Source: a virus (lineage: Duplodnaviria; Heunggongvirae; Uroviricota; Caudoviricetes). Taken from it: a stretch of DNA of 11,826 bases. The notes under the pieces were generated by a model, which did not search any database, had not been told where the DNA came from, and worked only from the letters and a program-made list of their open reading frames with translations. Shown here in pieces: positions 8,376-9,202 of this stretch. The DNA lies in IMG/VR virus record IMGVR_UViG_2778261065_000019; one strand, given 5' to 3'. The first letter of the stretch is position 1, and each line of letters opens with the position of its first letter. Made by a program: the position numbers and the translations under genes.

Positions 8376-8598
8376 CACACAGTTTCTCCCTGATTCTTTT
8401 AGTGTCCTCATTGAGGATGTCTGTAGCTTTTGTCAGTGAGTTTTTGATAATTATTTTTATTGTTTTAAATTTTCTTTTGTCGTACTCCGACTGTGATTTC
8501 CTCTCCATGATCTCTACCATGCAATTTATATCCACAAGCGCATGTATCAGTACTTTCAATGCTTCGCCTGCTGCGTCCGGCGTGTTTTTATTGCACAT
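8368..8598 (-). CDS. Hypothetical small protein (76 aa)
   Basis: Strong SD AGGAGG 6 nt upstream of the ATG at 8598, overlapping the last codons of the Icd/Ash-like ORF. Confidence 0.5.
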   Translation of the reverse strand: MCNKNTPDAAGEALKVLIHALVDINCMVEIMERKSQSEYDKRKFKTIKIIIKNSLTKATDILNEDTKRIREKLCDA

Positions 8599-9202
8599 GG
8601 CGCACCTCCTGACGAATACGGGCGGCGAATACAGCAACACAACCGGACGGGCAACGACTACGCGCTTCGCGTTCCGTCCAGGCGGTTACGTGGATGATTT
8701 GGGATTCTGACGCGCCAAAGATGATAAAGCGCCAGATAAAGGCAGTTTGAGAATGTACGAGGGCAGGGATAGTAGCCATGTTGGCAGCCTCTTCGTTAGG
8801 TTTAATAAACCCACCGCAGGAAACGCCAATTTCGCTGGCGGTGGACTGTACAGGGTTGGCGTAACCGGTTAACGAAGAACCCGGCGCGGATTGCTCCGCC
8901 CCCATACAGCCCACCATTGATAAGGTGTGACTATCCGGCACAAAAAAACACGCAGGGCGCGTGTTGTGCGCTTCGTTAAATACCAGGACGCCAATCCCGG
9001 CACCAGATTTTGCTGGTGCGGATAAATCATAGCCCTGGCTGGCAATGGCGATCAACTGGTTTTTCTGGCGTGCTTCCTGTTCGCTGGTGGCCTCAATGGT
9101 AATCACGCGCGGTTGTGCTGTGCTCAGGGCGATAAAACGCCAGATATATTTATTCAGGTTGTGCGAGTCCCGCCCTTGCGGGTGTATGGTATGATTTAAC
9201 AT
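8588..9202 (-). CDS. Icd-like / Ash-like protein with internal tandem duplication (204 aa)
   Basis: ATG at 9202 with GAGG 6 nt upstream. Two related segments: IWRFIALSTAQPRVITIEATSEQEARQ and IWRFIIFGASESQIIHVTAWTEREARSR. An in-frame internal start at 8779 (SD GAAGAGG) would give a 63-aa product. The family name is from memory of similar small ORFs in P4-like prophages, not from a search. Confidence 0.5.
   Translation of the reverse strand: MLNHTIHPQGRDSHNLNKYIWRFIALSTAQPRVITIEATSEQEARQKNQLIAIASQGYDLSAPAKSGAGIGVLVFNEAHNTRPACFFVPDSHTLSMVGCMGAEQSAPGSSLTGYANPVQSTASEIGVSCGGFIKPNEEAANMATIPALVHSQTAFIWRFIIFGASESQIIHVTAWTEREARSRCPSGCVAVFAARIRQEVRHVQ

What the first reader, a model, noticed from the sequence alone, without database searches (positions are those of the whole stretch)
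8588..9202. Icd/Ash-like ORF with internal tandem duplication and an in-frame internal start
Two segments share an IWRFI...(S/T)ExEAR pattern, and an internal ATG at 8779 with its own SD would produce just the second repeat (63 aa). The locus may express both a long and a short isoform. In P4-like elements this position holds small genes tied to immunity or host interference, so either product could be a helper- or host-interference factor.
Basis: partly seen in the sequence, partly recalled or inferred. Interest (0 to 1): 0.45.

Follow-up and report, generated by a model that had tools for sequence, protein, structure and literature searches.

The report
P4-type RNA immunity switch, nested genes
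The 204-codon reading frame is the satellite-phage equivalent of phage P4's nested eta/kil genes: its "Ash" middle is really two small regulatory RNA genes, and its last 63 codons are a separately started cell-division-inhibitor-like gene, so this is a known kind of immunity switch with two unusual twists.

Summary
ORF 8588-9202 (-) is 204 codons and contains two Icd-like segments. An in-frame ATG at 8779 has its own Shine-Dalgarno sequence.

Between the repeats, on the same strand, lie:
- a sigma-70-like promoter (9055-9026);
- an isrK/seqA-type leader RNA with an intrinsic terminator (9019-8943);
- a C4/CI antisense RNA (8921-8834);
- the C4 target a2/b2, where b2 (8798-8789) covers the SD of ATG 8779.

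Pfam's "Ash" domain is the translation of this RNA cassette. Phage P4 Eta has the same Ash + Icd-like architecture with the same embedded RNAs, and P4 Kil equals its last 65 residues.

Across 115 related cassettes of 24 RNA specificity types, the RNA loop co-varies with both targets. The reading frame stays stop-free in 111, although no codon-level selection is visible in the RNA part.

Best reading: P4-style immunity. C4 blocks translation of the short gene on transcripts from the internal promoter. Translation of the long frame on transcripts from upstream overrides this.

Unusual features are the extra N-terminal Icd half-repeat (5 of 5,426 complete E. coli genomes) and a stop-free frame that reaches alpA, antisense through ylcI.

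The parts
8588..9202 (-). Long ORF, 204 codons (Eta-like): partial Icd-like repeat + 'Ash' region + Icd-like repeat. ATG 9202 is preceded by GAGGT.
   Evidence: The exact protein is in public databases on 108 E. coli contigs, named 'ash family' or 'Icd-like'. Collinear with P4 Eta.
9065..9148 (-). Repeat 1: partial Icd-like segment (aa 19-46, profile positions 1-32 of 48).
   Evidence: Nearly identical to the N-terminus of stand-alone 66-aa Icd-like genes that lack the RNA cassette (L006).
9026..9055 (-). Internal sigma-70-like promoter TTGATC-N18-TATGAT, counterpart of P4 PLE. Predicted +1 is about 9019, the isrK 5' end.
   Evidence: A TTGnnn-17/18-TAnnnT promoter sits at the same fixed distance from the a1 loop in 23 of 24 specificity types. 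Consensus prediction only.
8943..9019 (-). isrK / P4 seqA-type leader RNA. Carries C4 targets a1 (8994-8988) and b1 (8979-8971), and an intrinsic terminator (stem 8965-8947 plus T-run).
   Evidence: Rfam RF01394, 80 bits vs gathering score 50. Terminator. Complementarity.
8834..8921 (-). C4 / P4 CI-type antisense RNA. Unpaired b' loop at 8879-8869, a' segment at 8862-8856.
   Evidence: Rfam RF01695, 75.3 bits vs gathering score 45. Across 20 types, 27 pairs, none broken, 13 with compensatory double changes.
8789..8829 (-). Downstream C4 targets: a2 (8829-8823) and b2 (8798-8789). b2 overlaps the SD GAAGAGG (8794-8788) of ATG 8779. Counterpart of P4 seqC.
   Evidence: Each of 24 b' loop types matches its own b1 (mean 8.9 nt) and b2 (10.2 nt), against 6.1 and 6.3 nt for mismatched pairs.
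8588..8779 (-). Short nested ORF, 63 aa (Kil/Icd-like); same frame and stop as the long ORF. Repeat 2 (Icd-like domain) is at 8740-8609.
   Evidence: 59.6 bits. P4 Kil scores 76 bits on the same model. Third-position-biased variation, 5/7/14. PGAP annotates this form in relatives.
8368..8598 (-). Next ORF (76 aa, no family). Its ATG 8598 and AGGAGG SD lie inside the 3' end of the Kil-like ORF, so translational coupling is likely. First of the genes leading to DUF4222 and the D5-type primase.
9299..9381 (.). Divergent control region upstream of ATG 9202. Minus-strand promoter candidates at 9348-9311. Three copies of (ATA)GTGTCTTACAC (9299-9313 inverted, 9322-9335, 9367-9381).
   Evidence: Prediction only.
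9203..9859 (-). Stop-free upstream extension of the same frame. GTG 9859 and ATG 9844 (with GAGG) lie just after the alpA stop. The frame runs antisense through the control region and ylcI.
9864..10070 (-). AlpA-like gene, homologue of P4 vis, immediately upstream of where the long frame opens.
   Evidence: Pfam Phage_AlpA, 33.3 bits vs cutoff 21.
9402..9581 (+). ylcI/ynfO-family gene, divergent from the Eta-like ORF and lying inside the stop-free antisense frame.
   Evidence: NF041551, 66.8 bits. Coding-type variation by codon position.

Best explanation
The locus is a P4/P1-type antisense-RNA immunity cassette written inside a pair of nested, in-frame genes. It sits in an E. coli PICI-like phage satellite and guards the replication operon.

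Quiescent state (inferred from P4, P1 and the anatomy). The internal promoter (+1 about 9019) makes a transcript that lacks the long ORF's start codon. It carries, in order:
- the isrK/seqA-like leader, with a1, b1 and a leaky intrinsic terminator;
- the C4/CI RNA, released by processing;
- a2/b2 with the SD and ATG of the 63-codon Kil/Icd-like gene.

The a' and b' segments of C4 pair with a2/b2 and hide that SD. The short gene is then not translated, and the untranslated RNA is terminated before the downstream replication genes. Pairing with a1/b1 in the leader reinforces early termination.

Induced state (inferred). Transcripts that start upstream include the long ORF's start. The source could be the 9311-9348 promoter region or the helper-induced alpA promoter. 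Ribosomes then travel through the leader, the C4 gene and the a2/b2 site to the shared stop at 8588. This melts the terminator and the C4 structure, blocks pairing and keeps Rho off. Transcription reaches the DUF4222-primase-SSB genes, and a Kil/Icd-like C-terminus is made as part of the long product.

Shown here: the RNA families, their structure and three-way co-variation, the promoter-like site, the nested starts, homology to P4 Eta/Kil, and frame-specific avoidance of stop codons.

Inferred: the transcription start sites, RNA processing, Rho dependence, the effect of translation, and toxicity or cell-division inhibition by the 63-aa product.
For: RNA genes:
- isrK scores 80 bits, C4 75.3 bits and c4-a1b1 42.9 bits, all inside the ORF on its strand.
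- P4 eta contains the same three hits in the same order.

Protein architecture:
- P4 Eta is Phage_ASH (aa 20-144) plus phage_ICD_like (aa 144-191).
- P4 Kil (65 aa) scores 76 bits on phage_ICD_like.
- The window ORF and P4 Eta are collinear, including the 'EAA-x-MAT' junction.

RNA structure and targets:
- C4 structure: 27 pairs, none broken in 20 types, 13 with compensatory changes.
- a1, b1, a2 and b2 are complementary to the unpaired a' and b' of C4, and b2 covers the SD.
- 24 b' types each match their own b1 and b2 at fixed positions. Self matches average 8.9 and 10.2 nt; cross matches 6.1 and 6.3 nt.

Internal promoter:
- Found by the scan and conserved in position in 23 of 24 types.

Open frame:
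- 111 of 115 cassettes (21 of 24 types) keep the frame open from upstream of the -35 to the internal ATG, each with an in-frame start upstream of the promoter.
- Stop trinucleotides in the RNA cassette number 3 in the ORF frame against 58 and 83 in the other frames. In the hypervariable b' loop the counts are 0 against 11 and 5.
- isrK-to-C4 spacing varies (127, 130, 169, 175 nt) but keeps the frame in 40 of 42 cases.

What is selected:
- The RNA part shows no codon periodicity.
- It is about ten times less variable than the Kil part among same-specificity cassettes: 3 of 240 variable columns against 26 of 192.

Literature:
- PMC10111431 summarises the P4 mechanism and reports C4 and isrK hits in GN-PICIs.
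- PMC4825925 shows by tagging that the frame through the C4 homologue (orf45) is translated in Gifsy-1. I confirmed that orf45 starts inside the C4 hit.
- PMC6092414 shows AlpA is the helper-induced activator of the GN-PICI operon.
Against: - There are no expression data for this element. Promoters, transcription start sites and terminators are consensus predictions only.
- I could not read the primary P4 paper (Forti et al. 1999). The mechanism rests on two secondary summaries.
- NCBI's PGAP pipeline annotates only the 63-aa gene as intact in relatives and calls the upstream part a pseudogene.
- Protein similarity to P4 Eta is weak: 30% over 104 aa, E=1e-4, driven partly by the shared RNA sequence.
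- Four cassettes, including close relative L124, have the long frame interrupted, so it is not indispensable.
- The cassettes were collected with a DNA pattern fixed in the 3' half of C4. They are one branch of the family and are not independent samples.
- No Rho-dependent terminator can be recognised by sequence.
Confidence: 0.65

Rival explanations
1. Only the 63-codon Icd/Kil-like gene is real. Everything upstream (repeat 1 plus the 'Ash' part) is an untranslated leader carrying the RNA genes, with a decayed Icd-like pseudogene at its 5' end. The long open frame has no function.
For: PGAP annotates relatives this way: an intact 62-63-aa Icd-like CDS plus an upstream 'incomplete, missing C-terminus' pseudogene. 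Repeat 1 is truncated, at profile positions 1-32 of 48. It is deleted in close relatives. The RNA part shows no protein-level selection.
Against: Frame-specific stop avoidance: 3 stops against 58 and 83 across 24 RNA types, and 0 against 11 and 5 in the hypervariable loop. The frame is open in 111 of 115 cassettes, always with a start upstream of the internal promoter. Spacer length changes preserve the frame. In P4 the equivalent long ORF is translated and functional (PMC10111431).
Confidence: 0.12
2. The locus makes two protein effectors, a 204-aa two-domain Icd/Ash protein and a 63-aa single-domain one, and the amino-acid sequences of both matter for helper or host interference.
For: Both halves are significant Icd-like matches. 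The exact 204-aa sequence recurs on 108 contigs. The long product would end with a complete Icd-like domain.
Against: The middle 93 residues are the translation of conserved RNA genes. They change in blocks exactly where the RNA specificity determinants change, with no codon periodicity. Repeat 1 is partial, rare (5 of 5,426 genomes; 2 of 117 cassettes) and dispensable in relatives.
Confidence: 0.08
3. Gifsy-1 IsrK-type activation rather than P4-type repression dominates. The short terminated isrK-like RNA acts in trans on read-through transcripts, or titrates C4 through its a1/b1 sites. This opens translation from the paired in-frame ATGs in the C4 5' stem (8917, 8905) and so switches on the Kil-like frame and the downstream genes.
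For: isrK matches at 80 bits and has its own terminator. Gifsy-1 has the same isrK-C4 order, and its orf45 starts in the C4 5' stem. The window has two in-frame ATGs 12 nt apart at the equivalent place, the same spacing as the two orf45 AUGs in PMC4825925. That paper shows trans-activation and orf45 translation.
Against: In the window the embedded frame runs on into Kil instead of stopping at an antirepressor start. No antirepressor (Ant, AnrP, Bro or KilA) domain is found downstream. The conserved b2-SD overlap and the a'/b' co-variation point to C4 as the specificity-bearing repressor. The two mechanisms are not mutually exclusive.
Confidence: 0.15

Closest known systems
Phage-plasmid P4 immunity region: vis (alpA homologue) - eta/kil nested genes with embedded PLE promoter, seqA, CI RNA and seqC (Forti et al. 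1999, as summarised in PMC10111431; P4 record NC_001609)
   Same: - A long ORF with Phage_ASH + Icd-like architecture.
- A nested in-frame short ORF (65 vs 63 aa) starting 'MAT' and sharing the stop.
- isrK/seqA and C4/CI hits inside the long ORF in the same order.
- A promoter internal to the long ORF.
- An alpA-type gene just upstream of where the frame opens.
- A replication (primase) operon downstream.

   Different: - An extra partial Icd-like repeat at the N-terminus.
- The ATG used by the 204-aa form is separated from alpA by a divergent ylcI module, which the frame crosses antisense.
- The element is a PICI-like satellite with lambda E/D-type capsid genes and a D5-type primase, not a P4-like one.
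- Low protein identity (30%).
Phage P1/P7 immI operon: c4 antisense RNA - icd - ant (Rfam C4 and c4-a1b1 families; named from my own knowledge of Citron and Schuster 1990 and Riedel et al. 1993)
   Same: - A C4-family RNA with unpaired a' and b'.
- Two target sets, a1/b1 upstream and a2/b2 downstream.
- b2 overlaps the ribosome-binding site of an Icd-family gene that is coupled to the next gene.

- P1-like phages D6 and RCS47 give continuous tblastn matches to aa 65-203.
   Different: No antirepressor gene follows. The next ORFs have no Ant, KilA or Bro domains. The controlled operon is replication, as in P4.
Salmonella Gifsy-1 isrK - orf45 - anrP locus (PMC4825925)
   Same: isrK followed by a C4 homologue. 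A translated frame begins at paired AUGs in the C4 5' stem. The isrK terminator is leaky.
   Different: In Gifsy-1 the isrK-frame ORF and orf45 are in different frames. orf45 stops at the start of an antirepressor. There is no Icd-like gene. The published mechanism is activation by IsrK in trans.
Gram-negative PICIs and helper-embedded PICIs (PMC6092414, PMC10111431)
   Same: int - alpA - variable zone - primase/SSB - late genes, including a lambda E-type capsid gene. PMC10111431 already reports that Rfam C4 and isrK profiles hit several GN-PICIs and HE-PICIs inside 'Bro network' genes such as Phage_ASH.
   Different: That paper does not describe the duplicated Icd-like module or the stop-free frame running from alpA through opposite-strand genes.

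Membership tests
NCBIfam NF033153 phage_ICD_like | HMM score at or above the curated cutoff (25 bits) | tested here: met
   Repeat 2 alone scores 59.6 bits over the full profile. Repeat 1 alone scores 38.0 bits but covers only profile positions 1-32 of 48.
Pfam PF10554 Phage_ASH | HMM score at or above the gathering score (26 bits) | tested here: met
   59.5 bits, aa 59-151. These residues (nt 9028-8750) are the translation of the isrK and C4 RNA genes and their target. The match reflects RNA conservation.
Rfam RF01695 C4 antisense RNA | Covariance-model score at or above the gathering score (45 bits), with the three-helix structure | tested here: met
   75.3 bits, model positions 1-87 of 87. 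The MFE fold gives the same structure. 27 pairs, none broken, 13 with compensatory changes across 20 types.
Rfam RF01394 isrK (P4 seqA-type leader) | Covariance-model score at or above the gathering score (50 bits); two hairpins plus an intrinsic terminator | tested here: met
   80 bits, model positions 1-77 of 77. The terminator was also found independently.
Rfam RF03163 c4-a1b1 | Covariance-model score at or above the gathering score (46.7 bits) | tested here: not met
   42.9 bits, just below threshold and overlapping the isrK hit. The a1 and b1 complementarities themselves are present.
P4 eta/kil-CI immunity system | Two nested in-frame ORFs sharing a stop, the short one Icd/Kil-like | tested here: met
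   ATG 9202 and ATG 8779 are in the same frame with the stop at 8588. P4 Kil and the 63-aa ORF both hit NF033153.
P4 eta/kil-CI immunity system | A promoter internal to the long ORF, downstream of its start, driving seqA-CI-seqC-kil | tested here: inconclusive
   A consensus-type promoter lies at 9055-9026, with +1 at the isrK 5' end. Its position is conserved in 23 of 24 types. No transcript data.
P4 eta/kil-CI immunity system | The antisense RNA is complementary to one site upstream and one downstream of itself, and the downstream site covers the short ORF's RBS | tested here: met
   positions, b2-SD overlap, and co-variation across 24 types.
P4 eta/kil-CI immunity system | The long ORF abuts or is coupled to the upstream alpA/vis homologue | tested here: inconclusive
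   ATG 9202 is 662 nt from the alpA stop. However, the same frame is stop-free back to alpA, with ATG 9844 lying 19 nt after the alpA stop. Which start is used is unknown.
P4 eta/kil-CI immunity system | Rho-dependent terminator downstream; translation of the long ORF suppresses termination; Kil is toxic | not testable with these tools
   Needs expression experiments.
P1 immI operon | An antirepressor (ant) gene translationally coupled downstream of icd | tested here: not met
   The next ORFs (8368-8598 and 8148-8411) have no Pfam or NCBIfam match. DUF4222 and a primase follow.
Gram-negative PICI-type satellite | int, alpA, primase/replication module and packaging or capsid genes in that order in about 10-15 kb | tested here: met
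   int 10585-11826, AlpA 9864-10070, D5-type primase 6092-7846, SSB, capsid E 3429-4484, decoration D 3082-3417, PerC. att sites and helper dependence were not tested.

The most novel reading that the evidence does not exclude
The Eta-like frame is really about 420 codons long. It starts next to alpA (ATG 9844 or GTG 9859) and is kept free of stop codons so that ribosomes can follow RNA polymerase from the helper-induced alpA promoter. The track runs antisense across a real opposite-strand gene module (ylcI and its two-way promoter), then across the RNA immunity cassette, to the kil stop. In this reading it is a 'ribosome runway': its only selected property is being translatable, which protects the induced transcript from Rho and from C4.

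Evidence so far:
- The frame is stop-free from the alpA 3' end to an Icd-like stop in 23 of 26 distinct alpA-to-icd intervals, 865-2,419 nt long (301-819 codons).
- In the window the extension has 0 stops against 18 and 7 in the other frames.
- Antisense frames of other genes in the window carry 2.1-5.0 stops per 100 codons.
- ylcI itself evolves like a coding gene, yet its in-register antisense frame has no stop in 26 variants down to 58% nucleotide identity.
- The translated extension looks like junk sequence.
Probability: 0.4. Interest if true: 0.6.

Novelty: new variant of a known kind. Interest (0 to 1): 0.4.

Why it matters
For annotation:
- 'Ash family protein' calls, and the split 'pseudogene + Icd-like' calls found in thousands of E. 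coli genomes, hide a P4/P1-type RNA immunity switch.
- Pfam Phage_ASH is largely a protein-space image of two RNA genes.

For biology:
- The locus ties PICI-like satellites to P4 at the level of their immunity logic. [quoted passage not shown]
- The 24 co-varying specificity types form a natural set of orthogonal RNA repressor/target pairs.

If the extended stop-free frame is functional, it would be selection for translatability alone, across an opposite-strand gene, used as an anti-termination device. Stop-codon insertions and Rho inhibition can test this directly.

Tried and rejected
- **Relatives in one genome per species.** I switched to a C4 DNA pattern in IMG/VR and to E. coli records.
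- **Codon periodicity as a coding test for the RNA part.** None was seen. This is uninformative about translation as such. The stop-by-frame and indel tests replaced it.
- **'The long ORF is a chance read-through of RNA genes.'** This was my first hypothesis (note 1). I rejected it because of the frame-specific stop avoidance and the P4 precedent.
- **Structure of the 63-aa protein.** AlphaFold2 gave a beta-beta-alpha-beta model of only moderate confidence (pLDDT 67.8). Foldseek against PDB gave nothing below E=1. There is no functional lead.
- **Primary P4 paper.** Forti et al. 1999 is not held.
- **SymR hit at 9203-9275 (+).** 33 bits against a gathering score of 61, taken as chance. The mir-135 and mir-4716 hits near 5924-6005 are likewise chance.
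- **Long shadow ORFs as an explanation for the upstream extension.** Shadow ORFs of 241 and 203 aa exist antisense to the primase and capsid genes. The single-locus case is therefore weak, about P=0.005 at the baseline stop density. The argument rests on the 23 of 26 variable-length relatives.
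Full report
**1. The observation**

The minus-strand ORF runs from ATG 9202 to TAA 8590-8588 and has 204 codons.
- Its first 69 and last 63 residues align at 12/34 identities, E=1e-8.
- Each half matches NCBIfam NF033153 'host cell division inhibitor Icd-like' on its own. Residues 19-46 cover only profile positions 1-32 of 48 (38 bits). Residues 155-198 cover the whole profile (59.6 bits).
- The in-frame ATG at 8779 is preceded by GAAGAGG.

**2. What lies between the repeats**

Pfam places a Phage_ASH domain on residues 59-151. The Rfam scan finds three RNA elements on the same strand and under the same residues:
- an isrK RNA at 9019-8943 (80 bits, gathering score 50);
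- a C4 antisense RNA at 8921-8834 (75.3 bits, gathering score 45);
- a sub-threshold c4-a1b1 target hit at 9032-8980 (42.9 bits, gathering score 46.7).

Other signals fit this picture.
- A sigma-70-like promoter, TTGATC-N18-TATGAT, sits at 9055-9026. This puts +1 at the isrK 5' end.
- An intrinsic terminator closes isrK at 8965-8943.
- C4 folds into the family's three-helix shape with two unpaired segments.
- Segment b' (8879-8869) is complementary to b1 (8979-8971) and b2 (8798-8789).
- Segment a' (8862-8856) is complementary to a1 (8994-8988) and a2 (8829-8823).
- b2 overlaps the Shine-Dalgarno sequence of ATG 8779.

**3. The context**

The window is a PICI-like E. coli phage satellite. It carries the following genes:

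| Feature | Coordinates |
|---|---|
| integrase | 10585-11826 |
| AlpA-like regulator | 9864-10070 |
| divergent ylcI/ynfO gene | 9402-9581 |
| the ORF studied here | 8588-9202 |
| DUF4222 | 7843-8142 |
| D5-type primase | 6092-7846 |
| SSB | 5106-5528 |
| lambda E-type capsid | 3429-4484 |
| lambda D-type decoration | 3082-3417 |
| PerC | 660-1031 |

The exact 204-aa and 63-aa proteins are both already in public E. coli records. The 204-aa form is named 'ash family' or 'Icd-like'; the 63-aa form 'Icd-like'.

**4. The known counterpart**

In phage P4 (NC_001609) the 197-codon eta ORF starts next to vis, the alpA homologue.
- Eta is Phage_ASH (aa 20-144) followed by phage_ICD_like (aa 144-191).
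- It contains isrK (60.8 bits) and C4 (74.9 bits) hits in the same order as the window.
- Its last 65 residues, starting 'MAT', are Kil, which scores 76 bits on the Icd-like model.
- The window ORF and Eta align collinearly through the 'EAA-x-MAT' junction.

PMC10111431 summarises Forti et al. 1999.
- Kil is a truncated Eta made on occasional read-through.
- Full-length Eta is translated only from an upstream late promoter and is coupled to the alpA homologue.
- Eta translation prevents termination.

PMC4825925 gives the same account of CI, seqA and seqC, and calls IsrK a structural homologue of seqA. I could not read the primary P4 paper.

**5. Is the cassette functional as a family?**

I collected 117 distinct cassettes from IMG/VR and E. 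coli with a C4 core pattern. They fall into 24 types by the b' loop.
- Each type's loop matches its own b1 (mean 8.9 nt) and b2 (10.2 nt) at fixed positions. Loops paired with other types' targets match 6.1 and 6.3 nt.
- The C4 helices keep all 27 pairs in 20 types, with compensatory double changes at 13.
- A promoter of the form TTGnnn-17/18-TAnnnT sits at the same distance from the a1 loop in 23 of 24 types.
- The 'A-x-M-A-T' internal start follows b2 whatever protein comes next.

**6. Is the long frame more than an accident?**

Yes.
- 111 of 115 cassettes (21 of 24 types) keep this frame open from upstream of the internal -35 to the internal ATG. All 111 have an in-frame start codon upstream of the promoter.
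- Between the isrK start and the internal ATG, stop trinucleotides number 3 in the ORF frame, against 58 and 83 in the other two. In the hypervariable b' loop the counts are 0 against 11 and 5.
- The isrK-to-C4 spacer varies (127, 130, 169, 175 nt) yet keeps the frame in 40 of 42 cases.
- The RNA part shows no codon periodicity.
- Among cassettes of the window's own specificity, the RNA part has 3 variable columns in 240. The Kil part has 26 in 192, biased to third positions at 5/7/14.

What is selected in the middle is the RNA sequence plus an open frame, not a protein sequence. This fits the P4 idea that translation itself is the function. In Gifsy-1 the frame starting in the C4 5' stem is orf45, which PMC4825925 shows to be translated.

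**7. The duplication**

Repeat 1 is unusual.
- Only the window and E. coli A19 among the 117 cassettes have an Icd-like segment just upstream of the internal promoter.
- Only 5 of 5,426 complete E. coli genomes carry the repeat-1/promoter junction.
- Close relatives delete repeat 1 and keep the frame.
- More than a thousand genomes instead carry a stand-alone 66-aa Icd-like gene behind the same upstream region. Its N-terminus is almost identical to repeat 1, its C-terminus resembles repeat 2, and it has no RNA cassette.
- Mosaic Icd-like proteins with different crossover points exist.

The two repeats therefore bracket the RNA cassette like recombination scars. Either the cassette entered an icd-like gene, or cassette-less genes arose by recombination between the repeats. 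I cannot tell which.

**8. Outside the given coordinates**

The same frame has no stop back to 9859, which is 38 nt inside the 3' end of alpA. An ATG lies at 9844, behind GAGG. This extension runs antisense through the two-way control region (40% GC) and through ylcI.
- In the window the extension has 0 stops, against 18 and 7 in the other frames.
- In 23 of 26 distinct alpA-to-icd intervals, 865 to 2,419 nt long, the frame is open from alpA to the Icd-like stop. This includes an 805-codon case crossing at least three opposite-strand ORFs.
- Antisense frames of other genes in the window carry 2.1-5.0 stops per 100 codons.
- ylcI shows coding-type variation, for example 22/9/31 differences by codon position. 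Its in-register antisense frame has no stop in 26 variants.
- No minus-strand terminator was found in the part of this stretch that was scanned, 9500-9864. AlpA is the helper-induced activator of GN-PICI operons (PMC6092414).

I read this as a possible extended Eta, but it is untested. The relatives are not independent samples.

**9. Verdict**

The locus is a member of the P4/P1 family of antisense-RNA immunity cassettes with nested Eta/Kil-type genes, in a PICI-like satellite.

PMC10111431 had already noted C4 and isrK hits in such elements. The variant features are the partial Icd-like duplication and the stop-free frame reaching alpA through an opposite-strand gene module.

Nothing here was tested by expression, and the mechanism is inferred by homology. 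The structure model of the 63-aa product (pLDDT 67.8) found no neighbours.

Noticed in passing
window 9203-9859 (-), with alpA 9864-10070 and ylcI 9402-9581: The ORF's frame stays stop-free upstream to the 3' end of alpA, antisense through ylcI and the divergent promoter region (0 stops against 18 and 7). Relatives keep it open in 23 of 26 variable-length intervals, up to 819 codons.
   Followed up: partly
window 9299-9381: Three copies of (ATA)GTGTCTTACAC lie in the divergent control region: 9299-9313 (inverted), 9322-9335 and 9367-9381. They overlap predicted promoters on both strands and look like operators. The binding protein is unknown.
   Followed up: partly
window 9402-9581 (+): The YlcI/YnfO-family protein (59 aa) looks by eye like a ribbon-helix-helix DNA binder, with a short strand followed by two helices. 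It is a candidate for the protein that binds the repeats. This was not tested.
   Followed up: no
window 8750-9028 (-); P4 L128 8168-8761: Pfam PF10554 Phage_ASH corresponds to the translation of the isrK and C4 RNA genes and their target, both here and in P4 Eta. Its conservation is RNA conservation.
   Followed up: partly
L006 1579-1779 (E. coli C7); proteins P0124, P0106, P0101, P0098: More than 1,000 complete E. coli genomes carry a stand-alone 66-aa Icd-like gene behind the same upstream region. It has a repeat-1 N-terminus, a repeat-2-like C-terminus and no RNA cassette. Mosaic Icd-like proteins show crossovers at several points.
   Followed up: partly
L134 1968-4385 (same contig as L021): An 805-codon stop-free frame runs from alpA to the Icd-like stop. 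It crosses what looks like a tandem duplication of the whole divergent module (two YlcI-like regions and two promoter regions), including an extra Icd-like N-terminal piece.
   Followed up: partly
L159 (Gifsy-1) 34073-34316 (-): The published orf45 of the isrK-orf45-anrP locus starts inside the 5' stem of a C4-family RNA hit (69 bits). So orf45 is the translation of the C4 homologue, probably STnc1160. In Gifsy-1 the isrK-frame ORF and orf45 are in different frames.
   Followed up: partly
window 6291-7016 (+) and 3888-4499 (+): Long shadow ORFs of 241 and 203 aa lie antisense to the primase and capsid genes. They show that 200-codon antisense ORFs occur by chance in this DNA.
   Followed up: partly
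window 9682-9707 (+) and 9805-9832 (+); 10236-10211 (-): Two intrinsic-terminator-like hairpins on the plus strand close the ylcI transcription unit just before alpA. One on the minus strand lies upstream of alpA. None was found on the minus strand in the part of the alpA-to-9202 interval that was scanned.
   Followed up: no
window 8596-8611 (-): The next gene's AGGAGG and ATG (8598) lie inside the last codons of the Kil-like ORF. The conserved C-terminal 'ARIRQ(E/G)V' may therefore be constrained by that ribosome-binding site.
   Followed up: no
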